Origin: Escherichia coli
Lineage (GTDB): Bacteria > Pseudomonadota > Gammaproteobacteria > Enterobacterales > Enterobacteriaceae
Length of the DNA: 64,000 nucleotides
Assembly (NCBI RefSeq): GCF_045037415.1
Contig: NZ_CP173438.1
Reading direction: 5' to 3' (one strand)
Shown here: positions 11,999 through 23,811 of the stretch, piece by piece
How positions within the stretch are numbered: position 1 is the first letter of the stretch
Layout of the letters: every line of letters begins with the position of its first letter
The notes under the pieces: generated by a model
What the model was told of the DNA's origin: nothing
Databases searched by the model: none
What the model saw: the letters and a program-made list of their open reading frames with translations, nothing else
Program-made: the position numbers and the translations under genes

Positions 11999-12074
<76 letters not shown>

Positions 12075-12127
12075 GTTTAAAAGGCATCGGCGTCAGCGGA
12101 TGTCTGGCTGAAAGGCCTGAAGAATTT

Positions 12128-12201
12128 GGCGCGTTAACAAAGCGGTTATGTAGCGGATTGCAAATCCGTCTAGTCCGGTTCGACTCCGGAACGCGCCTCC
12201 A
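12128..12201 (+). tRNA. cysT: tRNA-Cys (anticodon GCA)
   Basis: 74 nt GGCGCGTTAACAAAGCGG...GGTTCGACTCCGGAACGCGCCTCCA. Confidence 0.95.
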
Positions 12202-12213
12202 CTTTTTTCCCGA

Positions 12214-12300
12214 GCCCGGATGGTGGAATCGGTAGACACAAGGGATTTAAAATCCCTCGGCGTTCGCGCTGTGCGGGTTCAAGTCCCGCTCCGGGTACCA
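12214..12300 (+). tRNA. leuZ: tRNA-Leu (anticodon UAA), intact copy at prophage attL
   Basis: 87 nt GCCCGGATGGTGGAATCGGTAGACACAAGGGATTTAAAATCCC...GGTTCAAGTCCCGCTCCGGGTACCA. Long variable arm. Confidence 0.95.
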
Positions 12301-12369
12301 TGGGAAAGATAAGAATAAAATCAAAGCAATAAGCAGTGTCGTGAAACCACCTTCGGGTGGTTTTTTTGT
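12245..12369 (+). repeat. attL: left copy of the 125-bp direct repeat
   Basis: Identical base for base to 54857..54981. Covers the last 56 nt of leuZ plus the downstream terminator. Confidence 0.93.
12345..12367 (+). terminator. tRNA operon terminator (inside the att repeat)
   Basis: CCACC-ttcg-GGTGG followed by T7. Second copy at 54957..54979. Confidence 0.75.
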
Positions 12370-12430
12370 ATCTTCTTTCTCATTTCCGAAGATGCGTCCG
12401 AAGATGATTTTTCTCTGGACGCATCATCAT

Positions 12431-13477
12431 TCATTTTCTCTGGCCACCAACTACGGGCACTACTTTAACTTTCCGGTCATATGCTGCTGTCTGTCGCGGG
12501 TTCTTATGCCCGGAAATTGCTTGCTTCTCTTCCAGGCTGCCTTCCAGATCAGAGATACCTTTTGCTTTCAGATCATGAAATGTGAAGTCTATTTGCAGAT
12601 GAGGATATTTTTCCTGTGCTGCCGCTTTGACATCACGCCAACGAGAGTTAAAACCATCACGGGTATACTTGCCACCGGTAGTTTGATGAATCACAAACAG
12701 GCTACTGATTCCCGTTTTTAATGGCAGAGAACGAGCCAGAGCTATCGCTTTCTGCAGACGAGGCGACCAGGCTTTGATTTGCTTAACGCCGGTTTTTCCC
12801 TGACGAATGTAGATCCCGGAATCGAACAGCTGGTCTTTCTGCAATGAAAGTACATCACTCTGTCTGGCCACGCATAAGTAGGCAATCTCCATTGCTACGC
12901 GAACAACATCAGGAGACACTTCATAAACGGCCTGATATTCTTCATCCGTAATATAACGTTCGCGAGCTTTCTCTTTAAACTGTTTAACTCCCTGACAAGG
13001 ATTCCTCTGAACATAACCTCGTTCATAACCCCAACGGAATACCCGGGACATAAAGCTTTTTTCCCTGTTTGCCTGAGTTCGGCTTGATAAACCGCGTTGA
13101 TCCATATAGCGCCGAATATGTTCAGGTTTGATTTTATCCGGGTCGATCTTCCCGAAGACAGGCAGAACTTTTCCGGAATATTTTGTGTAGTCTTTCCGGG
13201 TTTCGACTGCCAAATCCATAAAATCAGGGGAGGTCATGAATTGTTCCGTGAGCGCCTGAAAAGTATTTCTTTCTTTTTCGTCACCGACCGCTTTTTCATA
13301 TGCCAGCCATACGGCTGATCGTGGTGCATCCAATGCGCACAGGCGTATCGCTTTGTTATCTTTATTCCTGAATTCGTAGGCCGCTTTGCCCTGGTAAACA
13401 CGAGGCGGCATCCAGTTATCTGCTGGGTTCTTTCTCTTTCCGGCCATTAAATATTGCTCCAAAATCAGGTTCATCAT
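12431..13477 (-). CDS. int: tyrosine-recombinase phage integrase
   Basis: 348-aa ORF adjacent to attL. C-terminal catalytic-domain hallmarks (ARQSDVLSL, FHDLKAKG, SGHKNPRQTAAYDRK). Start may be the internal Met at 13447. Confidence 0.92.
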   Translation of the reverse strand: MMNLILEQYLMAGKRKNPADNWMPPRVYQGKAAYEFRNKDNKAIRLCALDAPRSAVWLAYEKAVGDEKERNTFQALTEQFMTSPDFMDLAVETRKDYTKYSGKVLPVFGKIDPDKIKPEHIRRYMDQRGLSSRTQANREKSFMSRVFRWGYERGYVQRNPCQGVKQFKEKARERYITDEEYQAVYEVSPDVVRVAMEIAYLCVARQSDVLSLQKDQLFDSGIYIRQGKTGVKQIKAWSPRLQKAIALARSLPLKTGISSLFVIHQTTGGKYTRDGFNSRWRDVKAAAQEKYPHLQIDFTFHDLKAKGISDLEGSLEEKQAISGHKNPRQTAAYDRKVKVVPVVGGQRK

Positions 13478-14071: not shown

Positions 14072-14640
14072 TAGCGTATCCTCAGTGACCGTTCGCCGCG
14101 TTCCAGATGTGCGCCTGGTACCGGGTTTAATAACTCGGCTGGTGGTGTTTCTCCACGCGCCAGTATTTCGGCGGCAACCGCCTCCGCAGATTCAATCACT
14201 TCTTTAATGGCTCGCTTGTTTGGTGTAATAACCGTTTCTACATCAACAAGTGACACGCCCTCATACTCATCCGGGATCTTATCTTTGCTATCGATAATTA
14301 CCCGGATAGTCCCCTGTGCATCAGTAAATGTGTTTTTTGCGGTTTTCAGTTTATCCAGGCCAGCAGCTTGCAGGCAGGTGAGCATATGCTTTCGAATTGC
14401 TTTTTCCTTGCCTTCAAAGGACGTCTTACGGGTTGCCAGGCGAGACATTTCTTCAGCGCAGGTATTGGCATTGCCCTGTAAATTACGGCAGATGACCATC
14501 ATGGCGTCCAGTTTGTCTCCCAGTTCTCCTTCCATGCCTTCAAGCGTGTCGGCGATCATCTCTGGCGTCAGTTCATCGGCGGTTTCTAACAGGTCAATCA
14601 GACTGGCATATTCTTTTGCAATAGCGATAGCAGTGCTCAT
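14071..14640 (-). CDS. Siphovirus Gp157-like early protein
   Basis: 189 aa acidic helical protein. The N-terminal pattern resembles the Gp157 family as I recall it. Lies in the recombination module. Confidence 0.5.
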   Translation of the reverse strand: MSTAIAIAKEYASLIDLLETADELTPEMIADTLEGMEGELGDKLDAMMVICRNLQGNANTCAEEMSRLATRKTSFEGKEKAIRKHMLTCLQAAGLDKLKTAKNTFTDAQGTIRVIIDSKDKIPDEYEGVSLVDVETVITPNKRAIKEVIESAEAVAAEILARGETPPAELLNPVPGAHLERGERSLRIR

Positions 14641-16853
14641 GCTGTTTGCTCCTGTGCAGCGGTAAGGGCGGCGAGGCGTTCAGTTTTAATGTCGGTGATA
14701 CGGCGCAGACGTGATCCCAGATACGATGAATATTCTTTATCGCCTTTGGTTTCCGCTGCTTTCCTGTGTACATCCACTTCGCGGGCGATGAGGCCAAATA
14801 CCTTGTTTACTTCGTTGGCGGTTACCGCGGCGGCCAGCGTATTGGCAACGTTGATAAGCTTCTCATCCAGTTCCTTACGCAGACGGGTAGCATCTTCCGC
14901 ATTCTCGCTGGCATTCTTGATATCAAACTCAGCTTTATTCCTCTGGCGGTATTCCGGATTGTCGTACAGGCCCATGAAAATATCGGCGCTGAATCCGAGA
15001 GGGGATAGCGCTTTCTTAACAGCATCCGTCCAGGATTTCTTCGGTGCTTCGCCGTCGCTTGTTGGTCCGTATTTAGTGTCGTAGATATAAGGTGTGCATC
15101 CGTAAGCCTCGGACTCACCGCGTACCCCATTCAATATGTACCAGACTCTCACTTTCATGGTGTGGTGCATTTCACATAGGTACCCGCCAACACCGTCTTG
15201 AATCAGATCCCATTCTATTTTTTCACCAACCTGTTTTTTGCGAACTATTGGTGCGCCTTTATCAAAGCGCTCCTCCAGCACCTCTACCCCCCAGCCAATA
15301 CCAAATGGCCCAAATTCGCGAGTCGCTTTCATCGCTATATAAGTGCCGTTGATGGATGTGCCGCCGCCATTCTGAGAGAAAGCACTGGTGAAGCGCTCAT
15401 CGGTTTTGAATACGTTCTTCCACAATGCCAGGTTATCCGTGTCATCTGAGTCCTTTAACTCCGTTTCGATAGCTGAGATTGCATTCTGCCGCTTGTGCTC
15501 TTCGGCATGGATCCGCTCAACCAGCGCGTCAACGTTCTGCACCAGATCCTTTACCTGCTCGCTAAGTTGTTCTTGTGGAGGAGTCTCTTCTGCCAGGGTA
15601 ATAGCTGCAGGTTCCCTCTGTGATACGGCGTTATTTTCAGGTACGTCATACACATGGCGAGGCGTGACAAACTGCTCACGCAACTGCTGCAAACTACGTT
15701 CTCCAGCATTTGCAGCTTCGCTTTTTTCGCCCTGATTTGAGGGTGTTTCTGACATCATCCCATCAATTGAGAATCGTCCGCCGCCGTGGTTGGTGACTTT
15801 TACATCATCCTTGGGTGCTGCTTCCTTTGGCTTCTCTTCAACAGCATTTGCATCACGCTGCCCGTTAGCTTGCAGCCAGTTGTCGATGTGACTGCGCAGG
15901 GATTGTGGGAAGTGGTACGTGTCTTTTGCGGGGGCGCTCTGAATAACACCGAATACTGATGCGCGGTCATAGGCAAGGATCTGATCCGTTGTGCGCAAGG
16001 CCATTGACCAGCGTTTAAAATCTTCCCTGTCCTGACTGATTATTTCGTCTGCCGCTTTCAGGATGCTGGGGGTGATTTTTTCCGGGGCAACAGGTAACAG
16101 GGCGCAGGCAATTTCACGATCCAGAGTGGCGTGAGTCTGTTTGTAAGGACGTGCGGATGCTGTTTCTGGTTTTACCTCCGGCAGCATTTCATCTCGTTTA
16201 CCGGGATTCTCTACCCATTTTTTTATAAATTTGGAGATAGTCCAACTGGTCGGGTTTTGTTCCTGGGTATCGCAACTTGCCAAAATTGCATGTACCAGAT
16301 TATTCAATCCAGCAATATGCATGTACTCGATGGGCTTACACGCCACCATGGCATCAAGAACGATGCGGTTAAACGCGTCAACCTCATCCTCACTGTCAGT
16401 ATCACTGTTATCGAGCATCTCCAGGTATTCACGCGTCTGCACAAGCAATTCACTGTCGACTTCGTTGGCGTCGTGGCTGAACAGCAGAACGGCGGCGAAT
16501 CGTTCACGAGCCGGCAGTTTCATCAGGTCGCTAACCTGTGAGATATCTGCTGAACTGCAATCTGAATCAACAGGAGTGTTAACTACCCATTTTTCGCCAT
16601 CAAAACTGTGTTCTGTGGCAAACGTCTCATCAAACTCACCGACGCCTGGGCGCGGTTGGCCCGGGGCATCTTCCCAGATTTTAGGTTTGAAATAGTTGTC
16701 GCCGTGGTCAGGGTAGGCTTCCCACAATTTGCCGATGATGATGTTCTCGGCAACTTTTTTGTTAGGGGCGGCGATGGCGATGGCCAGCGCCGGGATCGCG
16801 CCGTTTTTGAGCGCGCCTTTTTTCGCTTCTAACAAGCCGTTAAAAATGGTCAT
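14637..16853 (-). CDS. 738-aa protein with a C-terminal Rad52/Sak-like single-strand annealing domain
   Basis: Region ...NGGGTSINGTYIAMKATREFGPFGIGWGVEV...AYGCTPY...KKALSPLGF resembles Rad52/22-family annealases. The ~480-aa N-terminal extension is unassigned. Confidence 0.65.
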   Translation of the reverse strand: MTIFNGLLEAKKGALKNGAIPALAIAIAAPNKKVAENIIIGKLWEAYPDHGDNYFKPKIWEDAPGQPRPGVGEFDETFATEHSFDGEKWVVNTPVDSDCSSADISQVSDLMKLPARERFAAVLLFSHDANEVDSELLVQTREYLEMLDNSDTDSEDEVDAFNRIVLDAMVACKPIEYMHIAGLNNLVHAILASCDTQEQNPTSWTISKFIKKWVENPGKRDEMLPEVKPETASARPYKQTHATLDREIACALLPVAPEKITPSILKAADEIISQDREDFKRWSMALRTTDQILAYDRASVFGVIQSAPAKDTYHFPQSLRSHIDNWLQANGQRDANAVEEKPKEAAPKDDVKVTNHGGGRFSIDGMMSETPSNQGEKSEAANAGERSLQQLREQFVTPRHVYDVPENNAVSQREPAAITLAEETPPQEQLSEQVKDLVQNVDALVERIHAEEHKRQNAISAIETELKDSDDTDNLALWKNVFKTDERFTSAFSQNGGGTSINGTYIAMKATREFGPFGIGWGVEVLEERFDKGAPIVRKKQVGEKIEWDLIQDGVGGYLCEMHHTMKVRVWYILNGVRGESEAYGCTPYIYDTKYGPTSDGEAPKKSWTDAVKKALSPLGFSADIFMGLYDNPEYRQRNKAEFDIKNASENAEDATRLRKELDEKLINVANTLAAAVTANEVNKVFGLIAREVDVHRKAAETKGDKEYSSYLGSRLRRITDIKTERLAALTAAQEQTA

Positions 16854-16883
16854 TGGTCTTTCCTCATTACAGGTCAGTGGTTT

Positions 16884-17204
16884 TTAGTAGGGGAGCTCAT
16901 CGGTATCTGGCGTGTATTCGATGCAAAGTAACTGCTGGATTTTGTCATCGATAGCAGCAATACGCTGTTGGGCGTCGGCGACTGTTTTCTGTTTTTGTTC
17001 ACGCAGTTGCTCGACCTGTAAACCGATGATGTCGATTGGCTCGGGCTGGTTAACGGTAATTTCAATTTCGCGGCTTTCCAGAAGGATGTACCTGTCTGGA
17101 AAATTTTTTGACATATCAACAGTCGCAACAAGCAGCTTTTCGTGGCTGAAAGTTGAAGTTGCATAATGAATAAAGAGTGTTACTGGGATGGTGCGCGCTT
17201 CCAT
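16884..17204 (-). CDS. hypothetical early protein
   Basis: 106-aa ORF with a strong AAGGAG RBS. First clear ORF of the leftward operon. Confidence 0.6.
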   Translation of the reverse strand: MEARTIPVTLFIHYATSTFSHEKLLVATVDMSKNFPDRYILLESREIEITVNQPEPIDIIGLQVEQLREQKQKTVADAQQRIAAIDDKIQQLLCIEYTPDTDELPY

Positions 17205-18060
17205 AGCGACTCCTTGGTAATGTATACTCAGAGCCGATCAGCGAATATTGATCAGCTTCCATAGCGTCAGTGTCGTTGGTCTTTCCTCATCACAAGTTTG
17301 GTCACTTGTGATAAATCCGAATGGTTTGGTCGCCGTTCGGGGTAACTGGCCCGCCTTGTGCGGGTCTTTTGCTATCTAAAGGGTGCCGGTTACGTTTCCG
17401 GCGTCGTTATGTTTCCATTACGACCGTACAGGGCTGGTCAGGCCCGGGCTGGTCTTTCCTGTTTTGAGCTGGTCAGGCTCATGGTCAACGCTGGTCAGGC
17501 GTGGTACTTCCTCCGGTCTTTCCCTGGTGTCACGCTGCGGGTTTGGCCTCTCCTGTTGGGGACTCAGGCACAGCGATAAAACCTGGCTGTGTGAAAAAAT
17601 GGCCCATCGTGCGGACTGGGCAAAGACTAAACACAGCAAATTGATGATGGGCGCCCGGAATCGAACCGGGTAACGGGCAGGGAGTTCCCGTTAAACACCT
17701 GTTCACCACAACCGGGAGCGCACTCCGCCATTTCAAAATTTAACGACAAAGCTCAAAGTTGAGTCGATGAAGTGCGCTCTCGTGTTGTAGCCAGGACTCT
17801 TCCCTGGTGGTCACACCGTATCGCCTTGATGGTGAATCAATCGCTCATACCTGGCTGTGGCTTGCACATTCCGGCTACCTGCTATGGAGACAACGCGTTA
17901 AGGCTCCGCTTCCATCCAGACCGCTTCGACACATGTGCCATATGCCGGTGAAGTCTTTCCCTCTGTCACCGTGTTGGCGCCGACGCGCAAAATTTGGTGC
18001 CGTCTTTCCGGCTGTCAGAACGTGTTTCTGAACAACTGCCGCTGGGTAAGCGTTGTTGAT
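17205..18060 (-). other. ORF-free, GC-rich transcribed leader of the leftward early operon (candidate structured RNA)
   Basis: No protein-like ORF on either strand. Many hairpins, five GGAAAGAC copies and three GCCTGACCAGC copies. Lies between the putative pL and the first ORF. Confidence 0.4.
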
Positions 18061-18067
18061 GAAAGTG

Positions 18068-18096
18068 ACTTTACAATTTGTATTTGTAATGGTCAA
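18068..18096 (-). promoter_or_regulatory. candidate pL promoter with overlapping operator
   Basis: Minus strand reads TTGACC-N17-TAAAGT. The palindrome TACAAtTTGTA (18072..18082) overlaps the -10 and spacer. Confidence 0.45.
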
Positions 18097-18214
18097 TGTG
18101 TTTTTAAAAAATAATTTGTAGTTAGGGGCAAAAAAATATTCACTGTGTAAAGGTGTTTTTGTGTTAGGGGAAAGTTGCATGCCAGCAGCGGCTGGCCTGG
18201 AAATTTGAACTGAA

Positions 18215-18608
18215 CTATTTTGTCTGGTTTTTGGCTTCAAGTAGTTCTTTTAGCAGTAGATCGAAGTGCTCTCTTTTTTCTTTTAGCTCATTGATTAATT
18301 TATTTTTTTCGCTCTCAGGCAGTCCTCTGAATAGTTGCAGTAGAGCCTGTTCTTGCGGGGTTAGTTCTTGATTGTAATTACCCGGGTGTAGTGTGGATTC
18401 ATCCAAATATTCCCCTTCATTCATGAAGAAAAAATGAACAGGGTATCCGGTCACTTTTGCTAGCTTGTCTAATTTATCTTTTCTTGGAGTTACCCCATTA
18501 CACCATGCCTGAACTGATTGAGCCGTAACCCCAATATGGCGAGCTAACTCAGATTGAGAACCAGCCTAAGTCTTTTAGAATCCGTTGTAGTCGGCTAGCA
18601 AAAGCCAT
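18215..18608 (-). pseudogene. CI-type HTH (XRE) repressor interrupted by a 1-nt frameshift
   Basis: ATG at 18608 gives MAFASRLQRILKDLGW and then a TGA. The next frame continues SQSELARHIGVTAQSVQAWCNGVTPRKDKLDKLAKVTGYPVHFFF... into ORF 18215..18454. The span is 394 nt, i.e. 131 codons plus 1. Confidence 0.75.
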
Positions 18609-18727
18609 GTTTTTCGTTTTTGTGTTCATACCGTAAGGATACAAGGTTTAATTGTAGGGAGCATTGCAAATATAATTTGTAATTACAGTTATTGTTTGTA
18701 ATGATGACGCGGACACAAGGAGTCCAT
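18609..18727. promoter_or_regulatory. divergent immunity control region (PR/PRM-like) with operator candidates
   Basis: TATAAT at 18671..18676. Perfect palindrome TGTAATTACA at 18678..18687. TTTGTAAT-type half sites recur here and at 18072-18125. Confidence 0.5.
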
Positions 18728-18958
18728 ATGGATAAACAACTGCAAGACAAAATTCTTTCCGTAATGAGTCAATCCGAGTTAGGGCGGCGATTAGGGAAAA
18801 AACCACAAACGGTAAGCCTCTGGTTCAAAGGACGGGTTCCCGGTGAAGAGGTTTTGCGCACATCTGAAGCTCTTGAATGGCGCGTGACCCCTCATGATCT
18901 TAGACCGGATCTTTACCCAAACCCAGATGACAGCTTGCCTAAAACGGAAGCAGCTTAA
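18728..18958 (+). CDS. Cro/YdaS-like HTH protein
   Basis: 76 aa from the ATG with an AAGGAG RBS. HTH in SQSELGRRLGKKPQTVSLWFKG. Divergent from the repressor. Confidence 0.7.
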   Translation: MDKQLQDKILSVMSQSELGRRLGKKPQTVSLWFKGRVPGEEVLRTSEALEWRVTPHDLRPDLYPNPDDSLPKTEAA

Positions 18959-19016
18959 CTGTTGGTGAGCCCCAAATCTGATTAAGCGTAATCAATTTTT
19001 AGCGACAGGAGACGCT

Positions 19017-21914: not shown

Positions 21915-21952
21915 CCACGCCTGACCAGCGTGAAATAACCGAGGAAAGACCA

Positions 21953-22364: not shown

Positions 22365-22601
22365 ATGGCCGGGCAATCAGATTACCTGCCGCCCGGCTTA
22401 CCACACAACCGCGCCAAATGGCCCCAGGAATACCAGCTTAAAGAGCACTACGACATGCGAGCGGCGGCGCTGATCCGCCAACTCTTTGAGAAACGTATTC
22501 CGAGGGGAAGCGTGATTGAGCAAATCGGAATGACGCCAGATACGTACCGGGAATTTTTCAGAGAGCGTCTGAACTACTGGAGAGGGGTGATGGAACAATG
22601 A
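22365..22601 (+). CDS. hypothetical protein
   Basis: 78 aa, tightly packed in the rightward early operon. Confidence 0.55.
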   Translation: MAGQSDYLPPGLPHNRAKWPQEYQLKEHYDMRAAALIRQLFEKRIPRGSVIEQIGMTPDTYREFFRERLNYWRGVMEQ

Positions 22602-23540: not shown

Positions 23541-23569
23541 TTGACTTAGAAAAAGTCCGGGGCTATAGT
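23541..23569 (+). promoter_or_regulatory. near-consensus sigma-70 promoter
   Basis: TTGACT-N17-TATAGT. Confidence 0.55.
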
Positions 23570-23575
23570 TTCCGC

Positions 23576-23650
23576 GCAGCCGCAAAATCGGTTGCCGGGA
23601 TTGGCGTCCCGGATATCTAAGTGACGCATAGCCGCGTTAGCGGTTTTTTT
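23576..23650 (+). ncRNA. candidate ~75-nt short transcript or attenuated leader upstream of the ant-like gene
   Basis: Runs from the predicted start after the promoter through hairpin CCGGGA-ttggcg-TCCCGG (23595..23612) to GCCGC-gtta-GCGGT plus T7 (23631..23650). Confidence 0.35.
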
Positions 23651-23811
23651 ATGTGTTAGGCACGGCCACATTCGCATTATGGTGGGCTGTGTGGGGGCTT
23701 CTGTGGAAGCGCCGGGTTCACTTAGCCGGTTACGCCAACCCTGCACAGCTCACCACCAGATGATTGGCGTCGCTGGTGGTGATGAAAAAAACACTAAGTG
23801 AGGCCACTGCG

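What the first reader, a model, noticed from the sequence alone, without database searches (positions are those of the whole stretch)
17205..18060. ~850-nt ORF-free, GC-rich, hairpin-dense leader behind the putative pL: candidate cis-acting or large structured RNA
Seen:
- A good leftward promoter (TTGACC-N17-TAAAGT, 18096-18068), overlapped by the palindrome TACAAtTTGTA, is followed by ~850 nt with no protein-like ORF on either strand. The ORFs listed there are R/P/S-rich and mutually overlapping.
- The first convincing gene starts at 17204.
- The region contains many local inverted repeats: GAGCGCACT...AGTGCGCTC (about 17714-17779) enclosing CTCAA-a-TTGAG; ACGGG...CCCGT; CCCGG-aatcgaa-CCGGG (17654-17670); CCAGG...CCTGG; and ATCACAAGT-ttggtc-ACTTGTGAT (17289-17312).
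- It also has a duplicated ACCTGGCTGTG (about 17581 and 17850) and the motif families described separately.

Established: lambda places nutL and N here. HK022 replaces N with cis-acting put RNAs that make RNA polymerase terminator-resistant.

Inference: this could be an RNA-based antitermination or regulatory leader, or a novel ncRNA. The alternative is a heavily decayed former coding region.
Basis: partly seen in the sequence, partly recalled or inferred. Interest (0 to 1): 0.6.

Follow-up and report, generated by a model that had tools for sequence, protein, structure and literature searches.

The report
Mosaic noncoding RNA leader behind pL
The gene-free kilobase behind this E. coli prophage's early-left promoter is neither a dead gene nor one giant RNA: it is a patchwork of conserved RNA modules, including a widespread structured phage RNA element that no database annotates, a decayed tRNA, a look-alike of the host small RNA RprA, and an antisense small RNA of the Salmonella IsrB type.

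Summary
Positions 17205-18060 carry no annotated gene, fold better than shuffles on both strands, and lie behind an operator-controlled leftward promoter. Comparison with a 71%-identical phage gives 20 indels, only 3 in multiples of three, and no codon periodicity, so decay of a gene is rejected.

The region is modular, not one RNA. On the minus strand:
- A 5' stem-loop conserved from the predicted start site.
- Element "E" (17956-17780), a ~175-nt structured RNA with strong covariation. It is absent from Rfam but present in 684 of 5426 complete E. coli genomes, in P1-like plasmids, in phages SPN1S and D6, and in more than 120 viral contigs. It is often fused to a same-strand tRNA-Arg or tRNA-Met.
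- A covarying helix, then a pseudo-tRNA.
- An RprA-like 3' domain with an intrinsic terminator (17646-17592).

On the plus strand lies an IsrB-family antisense sRNA (about 17286-17372). Its UUGGUC loops and anti-RBS stretch complement the phage's recurrent start motif GAGGAAAGACCAAUG, which explains the GGAAAGAC/GACCA motif families.

RNA-based regulation is supported. Membership of put, nut or CsrB-like classes is not. The functions of E and of the RprA mimic are unknown.

The parts
18068..18096 (-). pL-type early-left promoter: -35 TTGACC at 18096-18091, -10 TAAAGT at 18073-18068. Predicted start at about 18061/18060.
   Evidence: Found by the promoter scan. In heteroimmune relatives the promoters and operators differ, but sequence conservation begins at CATCAAC, about 7 nt after the -10.
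18071..18089 (.). Operator oL, the palindrome TTACAA-N7-TTGTAA, overlapping the pL -10 and spacer.
   Evidence: The same palindrome type occurs at 18664-18682 and 18682-18702 next to pR. The repressor gene at 18215-18607 has an HTH_3 domain.
18016..18061 (-). Conserved 5' leader: CAUCAAC, then SL1 (AACAAC 18057-18052 paired with GUUGUU 18036-18031), then SL2 (CAGAA/UUCUG, 18030-18016).
   Evidence: Conserved from E. coli to Serratia. The 5' arm of SL1 varies only by A-to-G changes that keep G.U pairs, which points to an RNA-level constraint on the sense strand. There is a single copy in the window.
17953..18012 (-). Two 'G-box' units: UGACA followed by a hairpin with a GAAAGA loop. The first is GCCG-GAAAGA-CGGC at 18012-17999. 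The second GGAAAGAC is at 17960-17953.
   Evidence: The same unit, CUGACAGCCGGGAAAGACCGGCA, recurs in relatives, with a compensatory GUCGG/CCGAC stem in L131.
17780..17956 (-). Element E, a ~175-nt structured RNA motif. Parts: P1 hairpin CGGCAUAU-GGCAC-AUGUGUCG (17947-17927); invariant core GGUAGCCGGAAUGUGCAAG (17879-17861); stem GGUCYGG/CCRGGUAGCC closing a variable apical insert; a small hairpin; hairpin CCAGG-GAAGAGU-CCUGG (17807-17791).
   Evidence: The covariance model built here scores it at 138.8 bits, and it is the only copy in the window. On 103 distinct homologues, 97-98% of cells are paired and the covariation score is 0.26-0.32 against 0.13-0.15 in shuffles (0 of 500 shuffles as high); slid controls pair 23-45%. 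No Rfam match at E <= 10.
17709..17787 (-). Helix H: CAAC-n-GAGAGCGCACU (17787-17771) paired with AGUGCGCUCCCGGUUG (17724-17709), enclosing a variable insert that contains the CUCAA/UUGAG hairpin.
   Evidence: Inverted repeat I7. The arms covary across loci: GAGAGCA/UGCUCUC 35 times, GAGGGCA/UGCUCUC (G.U) 32, AAGAGCA/UGCUCUU 6, AAGCGCA/UGCGCUU 6. Insert length ranges from 41 to 176 nt.
17646..17709 (-). Pseudo-tRNA (T): 5' GUGG acceptor remnant, an anticodon-arm-like ACGGG/CCCGU hairpin, and an intact T-arm CCCGG-UUCGAUU-CCGGG (17670-17654).
   Evidence: It sits where same-strand tRNA-Arg(UCU) starts, about 165 nt after the E core, in 25 of 120 viral loci. ARAGORN does not call it. Its best Rfam match is tRNA-Sec at only 19 bits. 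Alignment to the phage tRNA-Arg keeps mainly the T-arm.
17592..17646 (-). Module R, an RprA-like 3' domain: seed GCUGUGUUUAGUCUU (17637-17623), terminator hairpin (17621-17602) and U6 tract (17599-17594).
   Evidence: Rfam RprA scores 37.4 bits against a gathering threshold of 70. It matches 44 of 51 nt of E. coli RprA nt 54-105. The seed is invariant while the terminator stems exist in 5 unrelated versions. The full-length RprA model aligns at 50.2 and 48.8 bits in relatives L002 and L095. A terminator is detected by the scan.
17380..17591 (-). Repeat-rich spacer: CACAGC/GCUGUG hairpin, GGGAAAGACCGG (17523-17516 core), GCCUGACCAGC three times (17500-17433), GGAAAGACC (17459-17451), and GCCGG/CCGGC hairpin (17402-17385).
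   Evidence: The 17500-17550 block is 92% identical to BUCT708, the best-conserved stretch of the leader. The indels rule out coding.
17286..17372 (+). IsrB-family antisense sRNA. Parts: SL1 AUCACAAGU-UUGGUC-ACUUGUGAU (17289-17312); second conserved UGGUC motif GGUUUGGUCGCC (hairpin-2 loop in the IsrB model); terminator GGCCCGC-CUUGU-GCGGGUC + UUUU (17348-17370). It may extend 5' to about 17236, from a conserved -10 TATACT at 17224-17229. That extension would add the anti-RBS stretch CGUUGGUCUUUCCUCAU.
   Evidence: Rfam isrB scores 36.3 bits (gathering threshold 35) in the Serratia relative L130, 31.0 in L131, 30.4 in L095 and 15.2 in the window. Homology is supported by the six-way alignment: six different compensating SL1 stems around a conserved loop, and covarying terminator stems. 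The terminator is detected by the scan.
17272..17297 (-). Start-less copy of the phage's start-associated motif, ACUUGUGAUGAGGAAAGACCAACGAC. The ATG is ACG here, but it is ATG in BUCT708.
   Evidence: It is 88% identical to the translation start region of the 738-aa gene at 16849-16874 (repeat D4). BUCT708 and L095 have ATG at this position.
16884..17204 (-). First gene of the early-left operon (106 aa, phrog_2479). It is followed by the 738-aa exonuclease-family gene at 14637-16853.

Best explanation
The ORF-free kilobase is a two-strand, modular RNA locus in the leader of the prophage's repressor-controlled early-left operon.

SHOWN
- The region is non-coding.
- Sequence conservation starts at the predicted pL transcription start.
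- The basal leader, as seen in Serratia relatives, is about 346 nt. It consists of a 5' stem-loop, an RprA-like seed plus intrinsic terminator, a spacer rich in GACCA and GGAAAGACC, and a convergent antisense sRNA gene of the IsrB family whose terminator is bidirectional in relatives.
- In the E. coli lineage a mobile non-coding cassette is inserted into this leader. It consists of element E (a new covarying structured RNA), helix H, and a tRNA that is degenerate in this window.
- The same cassette occurs elsewhere behind other operator-controlled promoters, fused to a real tRNA-Arg(UCU), or just downstream of a tRNA-Met as in P1-like phage-plasmids.

INFERRED
- After derepression, pL would make a primary transcript of about 470 nt that ends at the R terminator (about 17594).
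- Processing at the H helix or at the tRNA-like junction would release a stable E-domain RNA and a 3' sRNA carrying the RprA-type seed. That sRNA could act on host mRNAs.
- Only read-through transcripts would reach the 106-aa and exonuclease genes.
- The rightward IsrB-like sRNA has three UGGUC motifs, two of them in hairpin loops of the UUGG (YUNR-like) type. If its 5' end lies upstream of the IsrB model, it also carries an anti-RBS stretch. It would pair in cis with the leader and in trans with start regions carrying GAGGAAAGACCAAUG, above all that of the 738-aa exonuclease gene, and damp early-left expression.
- The start-less GGAAAGAC and GACCA copies in the leader would then be cis targets or decoys for it.
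- The molecular function of E is unknown. My best guess is a stable, processed ncRNA or scaffold tied to phage tRNA cassettes, rather than a put-type antiterminator.
For: Non-coding: no PGAP gene. Of 20 indels against BUCT708, 3 are multiples of three, and mismatches fall 66/61/55 by phase. Frames are not kept among six relatives.

Promoter and operators. Conservation begins at the predicted start site in heteroimmune relatives.

Element E: covariation and controls. G.U pairs are common and A.C pairs are rare, so the minus strand is the RNA strand. The alifold energy is -27.96 for the sense strand against -14.97 for the antisense strand.

Distribution of E: 24 phage records, more than 120 viral contigs, 684 of 5426 E. 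coli genomes and 237 plasmids, always unannotated.

Context of E in the 120 viral loci:
- Same-strand tRNA-Arg about 165 nt downstream in 25 loci.
- Same-strand tRNA-Met about 170 nt upstream in 16 loci.
- RprA-type seed downstream in 22 loci.
- No opposite-strand tRNA within 600 nt in any locus.

Strong operator-bearing promoters lie 6-90 nt upstream of E.

Modularity: Serratia and E. whittamii variants.

Module R.

IsrB-like sRNA. Salmonella IsrB-1 and IsrB-2 are experimentally detected 88/94-nt sRNAs. They are encoded antisense next to the exonuclease gene sbcA; the Gifsy-2/Gifsy-1 prophage location is from memory (PMC2330248).

Anti-RBS link: among 31,982 windows of the 64 kb, the best trans duplex of plus-strand RNA 17265-17315 is the start region of the 738-aa gene, at -42.5 kcal/mol against a background of -14.7 +/- 4.3. 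The start regions at 21921, 13661 and 19521 are also among the 13 best non-overlapping hits. The motif is the real RBS of genes on both arms, here and in Serratia relatives.
Against: - There are no expression data for this prophage. The promoter, transcript ends and processing are all predictions.
- In the window the isrB score is only 15.2 bits. The 5' end of the antisense RNA is unknown. If it starts where the Rfam model starts, most of the anti-RBS stretch is excluded, and the trans complementarity would then be a trivial by-product of a decayed gene start in the leader.
- The RprA-like module is below the Rfam threshold and lacks the rpoS-pairing and 5' parts of RprA. It may be just a portable terminator.
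- No significant target for its seed was found inside the window: 5 hits against 2.6 expected.
- How RNA polymerase passes the leader terminator(s) is not explained.
- In this strain the repressor gene is frameshifted, so the prophage may be defective.
- Identity within E. coli is largely clonal: 443 of 698 matching records are at least 99% identical.
Confidence: 0.6

Rival explanations
1. Cis-acting processive antitermination RNA, put-like in function. The nascent 5' stem-loops (18061-18016), or element E, would bind RNA polymerase and let it read through the leader terminators and Rho sites into the early-left genes.
For: - No N-like gene lies between the repressor gene and the first gene.
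- One or two intrinsic terminators lie between pL and the first gene in all relatives.
- Conservation starts at the predicted start site, with an RNA-level (G.U) pattern in SL1.
- E always follows operator-controlled promoters or tRNAs and precedes untranslated RNA plus ORFs.
- E has long invariant stretches outside the covarying helices, as expected for binding a conserved host machine.
Against: - Serratia relatives keep both terminators without E, so E is not required for read-through.
- There is only one copy of E and of SL1, and none behind pR.
- blastn at word size 11 found no similarity to HK022, which is in the searched collection.
- E is about 175 nt, against about 70 nt for put (PMC9378689).
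- In P1-like elements no obvious terminator lies between E and the ban (replicative helicase) operon, by inspection of the sequence.
Confidence: 0.2
2. Decayed former coding region. The hairpins and motifs would be remnants of small early genes and their ribosome-binding sites.
For: - GGAAAGACC is this phage's real RBS motif.
- The copy at 17279 is 88% identical over 26 nt to a real gene start, but has ACG instead of ATG.
- BUCT708 has an ATG there and an annotated 37-aa ORF.
Against: - 17 of 20 indels are out of frame and there is no codon periodicity.
- There are no colinear ORFs in six relatives.
- Blocks are conserved with compensatory stem changes and conserved loops.
- Modules recur in unrelated phages as non-coding cassettes.
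- The E 'ORF' (ATGGCACAT...) is broken by a 1-nt indel among homologues.
Confidence: 0.03
3. One large ornate RNA, analogous to GOLLD or ROOL. The whole stretch from about 18061 to 17205, or at least E through R (about 365-500 nt), would fold as a single functional particle carrying an embedded tRNA-like domain.
For: - E, H, the tRNA or tRNA-like cargo, a hairpin, the seed and the terminator travel together in many loci, as 350-500-nt units.
- GOLLD and ROOL are phage RNAs found near tRNA islands, and tRNAs sometimes sit in the GOLLD linker (PMC12286853).
- The 856 nt fold better than shuffles.
Against: - Modules occur separately: E without R in L129, R without E in Serratia, and E followed directly by ORFs in P1-like elements.
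- No long-range covarying helix links the modules, apart from H.
- No Rfam GOLLD or ROOL match at E <= 10.
- The gene-proximal ~90 nt (17286-17372) belong to an opposite-strand gene.
Confidence: 0.07
4. DNA-level element. The repeats GGTCTTTCC and GCTGGTCAGG, and the CAAC...GTTG hairpins, would be protein-binding or recombination sites (iteron-like or integron attC-like) rather than RNA signals.
For: - The repeats are directly oriented.
- Helix H has conserved outer CAAC/GTTG, covarying arms and a variable centre. On a resemblance recalled from memory, this is reminiscent of attC. The 'cargo' after it varies between loci.
Against: - G.U (G.T) pairs are frequent and A.C pairs are rare in E and H, which indicates selection on one transcribed strand.
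- All 11 GGAAAGAC copies are co-oriented with transcription on both arms, and several are working ribosome-binding sites.
- No integron-type integrase is annotated in the ~19 kb around the element.
Confidence: 0.05
5. CsrA-sequestering sponge RNA (CsrB/CsrC-like), built from many GGA-containing hairpin loops.
For: Several hairpins carry GGA at the stem-loop junction (CCAGG-GAAGAGU-CCUGG, GCCG-GAAAGA-CGGC). GGAA is enriched and strand-specific.
Against: - GGA itself is not enriched: 20 against 16.1 +/- 3.0, with 64 of 500 shuffles as high. That is 23 per kb, against 19 per kb in the neighbouring gene and about 60 per kb in CsrB (own knowledge).
- There is no Rfam CsrB or CsrC hit. rsmX scores only 11.8 bits, on the other strand.
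Confidence: 0.02

Closest known systems
RprA (Rfam RF00034), the Hfq-dependent enterobacterial sRNA
   Same: Window 17646-17595 matches RprA nt 54-105 at 44 of 51 positions, including UUGCUGUGUGUAGUCUUUGCCC and a similar terminator. In relatives BUCT708 and L095 the whole RprA model aligns, including stem-loop 2, at 50.2 and 48.8 bits.
   Different: - It is below the gathering score of 70.
- It lacks the RprA 5' stem-loop and the rpoS-pairing stretch.
- It sits in a phage leader or as a tRNA 3' trailer, not at the chromosomal rprA locus.
- It is driven by pL, not by an Rcs/Cpx-controlled promoter.
- The true rprA is elsewhere in the same genome.
IsrB-1 / IsrB-2 of Salmonella (Rfam RF01386)
   Same: Both have two hairpins plus a terminator and a conserved UUUGGUC loop. 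Both are encoded antisense between co-directional genes next to an exonuclease gene: sbcA in Salmonella, and the phrog_2489 exonuclease here. That isrB-1 and isrB-2 lie in the Gifsy-2 and Gifsy-1 prophages is recalled from memory.
   Different: The window copy scores only 15.2 bits; one Serratia relative reaches 36.3. blastn detects no similarity to any other phage record over this part of the leader. IsrB has no assigned function, so the anti-RBS and decoy model is new inference.
HK022 putL/putR antiterminator RNAs
   Same: A structured RNA directly behind pL, in a lambdoid phage without an N gene, and upstream of terminators.
   Different: put is about 70 nt with two stems and has a second copy behind pR (PMC9378689). 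Here there is a single copy, no sequence similarity, and E is about 175 nt and is dispensable in relatives.
GOLLD and ROOL large phage RNAs
   Same: All are phage- or prophage-encoded, unannotated structured RNAs next to or fused with tRNAs, including Met-tRNA, with a conserved core plus variable regions (PMC12286853, PMC5737381).
   Different: There is no homology (Rfam negative). E is much smaller (175 nt, with cassettes of 350-500 nt). It occurs in Enterobacteriaceae, and no evidence bears on multimeric assemblies.
tRNA-spacer-derived sRNAs such as 3'ETS-leuZ (own knowledge: Lalaouna et al. 2015)
   Same: In the tRNA-Arg cassettes the RprA-like module begins right after the tRNA CCA end and runs to the operon terminator. 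It is therefore a 3' external transcribed spacer that tRNA processing would release.
   Different: 3'ETS-leuZ is a sponge for RyhB and RybB and has an unrelated sequence. In this window the tRNA is degenerate, so release by tRNA-processing enzymes is uncertain.
P1/P7 C4 and P4 CI immunity RNAs, and start-associated sequences (SAS) of Cluster K mycobacteriophages (own knowledge)
   Same: In the C4 and CI systems, a small phage RNA is complementary to repeated short sequences at or near ribosome-binding sites of phage genes, with extra copies in the leader. In SAS phages, a 13-nt motif lies just upstream of many start codons.
   Different: The sequences and families differ. A genuine C4/isrK module lies elsewhere in this window, at 23563-23760. 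No experiment links the IsrB-like RNA to the motif.

Membership tests
RprA (RF00034) | Covariance-model score at or above the Rfam gathering threshold of 70 bits | tested here: not met
   The window scores 37.4 bits (E 0.017 in a 1.5-kb search) and gives no hit at gathering level. Relatives score 50.2 and 48.8 bits.
RprA (RF00034) | 3' domain: single-stranded UUGCUGUGUGUAGUCUU followed by a Rho-independent terminator | tested here: met
   44 of 51 positions match RprA nt 54-105. The seed is invariant across 20 distinct phage versions whose terminator stems differ.
RprA (RF00034) | 5' stem-loops and the rpoS-pairing region (nt about 33-62) | tested here: not met
   The local alignment starts at RprA nt 54. 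Upstream of that point lies the pseudo-tRNA.
RprA (RF00034) | Hfq-dependent regulation of rpoS, csgD and ricI | not testable with these tools
   Needs genetics or RIL-seq.
IsrB (RF01386) | Covariance-model score at or above the gathering threshold of 35 bits | tested here: inconclusive
   The window plus strand 17286-17370 scores 15.2 bits. The homologous positions score 36.3 bits in L130, 31.0 in L131 and 30.4 in L095. Homology to the window is shown by the alignment.
IsrB (RF01386) | An sRNA of about 90 nt ending at an intrinsic terminator, encoded antisense between co-directional prophage genes beside an exonuclease gene | tested here: met
   The terminator is at 17348-17366 followed by UUUU. 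The flanking leader and genes are on the opposite strand, and an exonuclease-family gene lies downstream. The Salmonella context is taken from PMC2330248.
HK022 put RNA | Sequence or structural similarity to putL/putR (about 70 nt, two stems) | tested here: not met
   blastn at word size 11 with the whole leader against a collection that includes HK022 gave no HK022 hit. E is about 175 nt. The 5' SL1/SL2 are two hairpins but show no similarity. No put covariance model exists to test against.
HK022 put RNA | Two copies, one behind pL and one behind pR | tested here: not met
   There is a single E and a single 5' SL1 motif in the 64 kb.
HK022 put RNA | Cis antitermination through the RNA polymerase beta' zinc-binding domain | not testable with these tools
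   Needs read-through assays.
Lambda N / nut | boxA (CGCTCTTA or TGCTCTTT), a boxB hairpin (5-bp stem with a GAAAA, GAAGA or GACAA loop), and an N gene with an arginine-rich motif | tested here: not met
   There is no boxA-like or boxB-like site in the leader; the only TGCTCTTT in 12-30 kb is at 22447. No conserved small ORF is present. The TGCTCTY strand of helix H covaries with its partner, so it is not a fixed boxA.
tRNA | A cloverleaf callable by ARAGORN or the Rfam tRNA model | tested here: not met
   ARAGORN finds only the host Gly, Cys and Leu tRNAs. The best match in the region is tRNA-Sec at 19.3 bits against a threshold of 47. Only the T-arm and the GUGG start are retained.
GOLLD / ROOL | Match to the Rfam covariance models | tested here: not met
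   No such hit at E <= 10 in 16800-18300, nor in six related loci at E <= 0.05.
CsrB/CsrC-type CsrA sponge | A high density of GGA motifs in hairpin loops | tested here: not met
   GGA occurs 20 times against 16.1 +/- 3.0 expected, or 23 per kb.
New motif 'E' (defined here) | Invariant core GGUAGCCGGAAUGUGCAAG, P1 hairpin with GGCAC loop, GAAGAGA-loop hairpin, followed by helix H | tested here: met
   Window 17780-17956 scores 138.8 bits over the full model length. All helices are present.

The most novel reading that the evidence does not exclude
Element E, with helix H and its tRNA or tRNA-like cargo, is a new class of enterobacterial phage RNA. It would act on a conserved host machine, either RNA polymerase (a put-independent processive antiterminator) or the tRNA and translation apparatus. 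It would be delivered together with a mimic of the host sRNA RprA as its 3' trailer. In parallel, the IsrB-family antisense RNA would co-regulate a set of early genes through their shared 13-nt start-associated motif, with the leader's start-less copies acting as decoys.
Probability: 0.3. Interest if true: 0.8.

Novelty: new variant of a known kind. Interest (0 to 1): 0.65.

Why it matters
Element E is a well-supported structured RNA. It is present in about 13% of complete E. coli genomes (including pandemic ST131-type chromosomes and P1-like phage-plasmids) and in studied phages such as SPN1S, D6 and SJ46. It is nevertheless absent from Rfam and from genome annotation, and its core sequence drew no relevant hit in the searchable literature.

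Its constant association with phage tRNAs and with operator-controlled early promoters makes an old question testable in a tractable host: what do the unexplained RNAs that accompany phage tRNA genes do?

The RprA-like trailer suggests that phages copy the business end of a core stress sRNA.

The link between an IsrB-type antisense RNA and a phage-wide start-codon motif gives a first concrete, falsifiable function for the orphan IsrB family, and for start-associated motifs in a lambdoid phage.

Tried and rejected
- Rfam at gathering level and at E <= 10 found nothing for E, H or the spacer, only sub-threshold RprA, tRNA-Sec and isrB hits.
- ARAGORN calls no tRNA in the leader.
- Megablast of the region against phage records gave no match. 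Only the distant mode revealed E.
- CsrA-sponge idea: rejected, because GGA is not enriched.
- Lambda nut idea: no boxA or boxB. The boxA-like TGCTCTTT strand of helix H in other loci covaries with its partner, so it is a helix strand and not a fixed boxA.
- put idea: single copy and no similarity. The HK022 record has no annotated put or nun, so no direct structural comparison was made.
- Small-ORF ideas were dropped because frames are not conserved. These were the E 'ATGGCACAT' ORF, the 48-aa ORF at 17116-17262, and an Arg-rich N-like peptide in the Serratia open frame.
- In-window targets of the RprA-like seed: 5 hits against 2.6 expected, not significant.
- Literature searches by sequence and by keyword found nothing on E. 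'RprA-like' returned 0 papers. E. coli 'IsrB/AzuCR' is a different RNA from Salmonella IsrB.
- Which part of RprA uses the shared 3' stretch as a seed could not be settled from the papers read.
- The duplicated ACCTGGCTGTG was not explained.
Full report
SOURCE AND CONTEXT

The window is E. coli chromosome. The queried 961 nt are 100% identical to strain SK1144 and to many ST131-type genomes, and are present in 474 of 5426 complete genomes.

The region lies in a lambdoid prophage integrated just after the glyW-cysT-leuZ tRNA operon. Reading leftward, the order is:
- an HTH_3 cI-like repressor gene (18215-18607);
- the finding's region;
- a 106-aa gene (phrog_2479);
- a 738-aa exonuclease-family gene (phrog_2489);
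- a Gp157-family gene, a DUF4224 gene and the integrase.

Rightward lie a cro-like gene, a CII-like/YdaT gene and the replication genes.

OBSERVATION CHECK

- The promoter TTGACC-N17-TAAAGT (18096-18068) is the only leftward sigma-70-like site in 16500-19000.
- It is overlapped by TTACAA-N7-TTGTAA (18071-18089). This operator type occurs twice more beside pR, which supports a repressor-controlled pL.
- PGAP annotates nothing between 17205 and 18214.
- The listed inverted repeats and the duplicated 11-mer are present.
- G+C is modestly raised.
- Both strands fold better than dinucleotide shuffles, with z = -3.7 and z = -3.4.

CODING OR NOT

The closest full-length relative is the leader of 'Stenotrophomonas' phage BUCT708, at 71% identity.
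- Across the leader the two differ by 20 indels, of which only 3 are multiples of three. Mismatches are evenly spread over the three phases, 66/61/55.
- Six relatives, including E. whittamii and four Serratia species found through the 106-aa protein, share no colinear ORF.

The decayed-gene alternative is therefore rejected, apart from one local remnant. At 17272-17297 lies a copy, 88% identical over 26 nt, of the start region of the 738-aa gene, with ACG in place of ATG. In BUCT708 it is ATG, with an annotated 37-aa ORF.

MODULE E (17956-17780, MINUS STRAND)

A distant blastn search showed that about 170 nt of the leader recur in unrelated phages, always unannotated: SPN1S, SPN9TCW, SPC32H/N, PAT1, Tyrion, SopranoGao, ST512-KPC3phi13.3, D6 and SJ46.

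Structure, measured on 103 distinct sequences:
- RNAalifold gives -27.96 kcal/mol for this strand against -14.97 for the complement.
- For the predicted structure, 98.0% of cells pair, against 89.8% in column shuffles and 23-39% in slid controls. The covariation score is 0.259 against 0.126, with 0 of 500 shuffles as high.
- An alternative structure with a local P1 hairpin, CGGCRUAU-GGCAC-AUGYGCCG, does at least as well, at 0.322 against 0.146. It contains a clean covarying pair, GC in 71 sequences and AU in 31.
- Other supported helices are a stem closing a variable apical insert (UA 55, CG 48), a small hairpin, and a hairpin with a GAAGAGA loop in which four of five pairs show double changes.
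- G.U pairs are frequent and A.C pairs are rare, so this strand is the RNA strand.

E is absent from Rfam 15 at E <= 10. Literature searches with its core sequence returned only unrelated C. elegans papers. A covariance model built here finds one full-length copy in the window, at 138.8 bits.

E is present in 684 of 5426 complete E. coli genomes (482 chromosomal places and 218 on P1-like plasmids of about 90-100 kb) and in 237 PLSDB plasmids. No feature is annotated under it in any listed hit.

CONTEXT OF E

In the 120 viral loci:
- a same-strand tRNA-Arg(UCU) starts about 165 nt after the core in 25;
- a same-strand tRNA-Met(CAU) ends just upstream in 16, which are P1-like elements where the ban (replicative helicase) operon follows;
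- an RprA-type seed follows in 22;
- no opposite-strand tRNA lies within 600 nt in any.

Upstream, many loci have strong promoters overlapped by palindromes of several different specificities. In L035 and L115 the -10 ends only 6 nt before E. E is therefore the 5' part of repressor-controlled early or moron-type units.

HELIX H AND MODULE T

E is followed by a helix, CAAC-n-GAGAGCAYU ... AGUGCUCUC-n-GUUG. It encloses a 41-176-nt variable insert, and its arms covary, with G.U pairs.

The GUUG runs straight into GUGG. In tRNA-bearing loci that GUGG is the 5' acceptor strand of tRNA-Arg. Neither ARAGORN nor Rfam calls it.

MODULE R (17646-17592)

Rfam gives a sub-threshold RprA hit of 37.4 bits against a threshold of 70.
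- My recalled RprA sequence was confirmed as 100% identical to the annotated rprA.
- The window matches RprA nt 54-105 at 44 of 51 positions.
- Across phage loci the stretch GCUGUGUGUAGUCUU is invariant, while the terminator stem that follows exists in five unrelated versions. This suggests selection on the single-stranded seed.
- In BUCT708 and L095 the whole RprA model aligns, including stem-loop 2, at 50.2 and 48.8 bits.
- In tRNA-Arg cassettes this module starts right after the tRNA CCA, so it is a 3' trailer.

R is thus RprA-like but not a member of the family by the Rfam threshold. In the window it lacks the rpoS-pairing part.

THE BASAL LEADER

Serratia relatives have a leader of only about 346 nt, made up of the same 5' sequence, then the seed plus terminator, then the distal region. 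They have no E, H or T. E. whittamii has E and T but no R terminator. The modules are therefore independent, and E-H-T is an insertion.

In heteroimmune relatives the promoters and operators differ, but conservation starts at CATCAAC, about 7 nt after the -10. SL1 (AACRRC/GUUGUU) varies only by A-to-G changes that preserve G.U pairs.

THE DISTAL REGION AND THE OPPOSITE STRAND

The six-way alignment shows:
- a second conserved block, GGCGACCAAACC;
- a hairpin, CCCGC/GCGGG or CCCAC/GUGGG, flanked by an A-run and a T-run. This is a bidirectional terminator in relatives; in the window the U-tract is good only on the plus strand (17348-17366 plus UUUU).

On that plus strand Rfam isrB (gathering threshold 35) scores 36.3 bits in L130, 31.0 in L131, 30.4 in L095 and 15.2 in the window. 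Salmonella IsrB-1 and IsrB-2 are experimentally mapped 88/94-nt sRNAs, encoded antisense beside the exonuclease gene sbcA (PMC2330248); that these loci lie in the Gifsy-2 and Gifsy-1 prophages is recalled from memory. That is the same kind of place. A conserved -10 (TATACT, TATAAT or TATAAA) lies on the plus strand next to the RBS of the 106-aa gene. It could give a longer primary transcript starting at about 17236.

THE MOTIF FAMILIES

- GGAAAGAC occurs 11 times in the window against 1.8 expected, always co-oriented with transcription.
- Outside the leader it is the RBS of real genes on both arms, as GAGGAAAGACC(A/G)A-N0-3-AUG. The same holds in Serratia relatives, so it is a start-associated motif.
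- The leader holds five start-less copies, plus nine GACCA on the sense strand and none on the antisense strand.
- The plus-strand RNA carries the complements: UUGGUCUUUCCUCAU, loop UUGGUC, and GUUUGGUCGCC.
- Scanning 31,982 windows of the 64 kb, the best trans duplex of plus-strand RNA 17265-17315 is the start region of the 738-aa gene, at -42.5 kcal/mol against -14.7 +/- 4.3. The start regions at 21921, 13661 and 19521 are also among the 13 best non-overlapping hits.

One caveat applies. This complementarity follows automatically from the leader containing a paralogue of those start regions. It is functional only if the antisense RNA includes that stretch.

MECHANISM

Shown:
- The locus is non-coding and selected at the RNA level.
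- pL carries operators.
- There is an intrinsic terminator at about 17594.
- There is a convergent sRNA gene of the IsrB type.
- E-H-tRNA is a mobile cassette.

Inferred:
- pL makes a primary RNA of about 470 nt ending at R.
- Processing releases E and an RprA-seed sRNA.
- Read-through feeds the early-left genes.
- The IsrB-like RNA pairs with the leader in cis and with GGAAAGACCAAUG start regions in trans.
- The leader copies act as targets or decoys.

The function of E is unknown. A put-like role is possible, but it is weakened by three observations. Serratia leaders keep the terminators without E. There is only one copy, and none behind pR. There is no similarity to HK022.

COMPARISON WITH KNOWN SYSTEMS

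- The locus works partly like known phage RNA circuits: antisense sRNAs, the repeated-target logic of C4 and CI, tRNA 3'ETS sRNAs, and host-sRNA mimicry.
- Positionally it resembles put and nut, but the membership tests for put, nut, tRNA, GOLLD/ROOL and CsrB-like sponges are not met.
- RprA membership is not met by score. IsrB membership is inconclusive in the window and met in a relative.
- GOLLD and ROOL are the nearest conceptual relatives of E, being phage RNAs beside or fused to tRNAs (PMC12286853).

LIMITS

- There are no expression data.
- E-values from the home-made model are rough.
- The homologues of E were collected with an exact 19-mer, so the core's invariance is by construction. 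The covariation lies outside it.
- Much of the within-E. coli identity is clonal.
- The repressor gene in this window carries a 1-nt insertion relative to SK1144.

Noticed in passing
window 18215-18607 (-), extra A at 18559: The cI-like HTH repressor gene has a 1-nt insertion relative to strain SK1144, whose flanks are otherwise identical. The frameshift puts two stops before the helix-turn-helix, and the longest remaining ORF (79 aa) starts after it. The prophage may be derepressed or defective in this strain, or this may be a sequencing error.
   Followed up: partly
window 23563-23760 (+): isrK (80.4 bits), c4-a1b1 (52.9) and C4 antisense RNA (75.2) are all above the Rfam gathering scores. 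They are followed by an ORF6N (antirepressor-like) gene. This is a P1/P7-type immI module, with a Gifsy-1-type IsrK, inside a lambdoid prophage.
   Followed up: no
window 11999-12432: The prophage integrase end lies immediately after the terminator of the host glyW-cysT-leuZ tRNA operon. The 3' trailer of leuZ (12301-12370, known as the sRNA sponge 3'ETS-leuZ) appears intact.
   Followed up: partly
window 13681, 16856, 19523, 21943, 26321; L130 3647 and 1366; L131 3642 and 1199: A 13-nt start-associated motif, GAGGAAAGACC(A/G)A, lies 0-3 nt before the start codon of several early genes on both arms of the prophage. It is conserved in Serratia relatives.
   Followed up: partly
L060 384-430 (+): A sub-threshold Hammerhead_1 hit (28.7 bits against a threshold of 34) lies inside the variable insert of helix H in one viral contig. 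This suggests the insert position can host different RNA modules.
   Followed up: no
L002 (OM816834.1) and OM816835.1: Phages deposited as Stenotrophomonas phages BUCT708 and BUCT709 carry this enterobacterial-type early region: the leader at 71% identity, with the same gene order. The host assignment, or a recent host jump, deserves a check.
   Followed up: no
L016, L020 and about 57 other IMG/VR loci, the 150-200 nt after helix H: Where there is no tRNA, the cargo is a conserved tRNA-like unit: GUGGUGA...UCACCAC acceptor-like stem, a GCGC-AGGCUGAU-GCGC arm, and a CCGG-AGAUCAGCA-CCGG arm. There is also a second cargo type, GUGGUAAUCCGCGAAAUGGCGCGG.... Neither matches Rfam.
   Followed up: partly
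window 17574-17591 and 17842-17859: The duplicated CACAGCCAGGU (ACCTGGCTGTG on the plus strand) occurs once inside E and once just after the R terminator. After the terminator it forms a hairpin with GCUGUG. The duplication itself is unexplained.
   Followed up: no
NC_009801.1 (E. coli E24377A) 2217029-2217085: Only the first 57 nt of E are present, at 100% identity. This is a truncated copy and a possible recombination breakpoint inside E.
   Followed up: no
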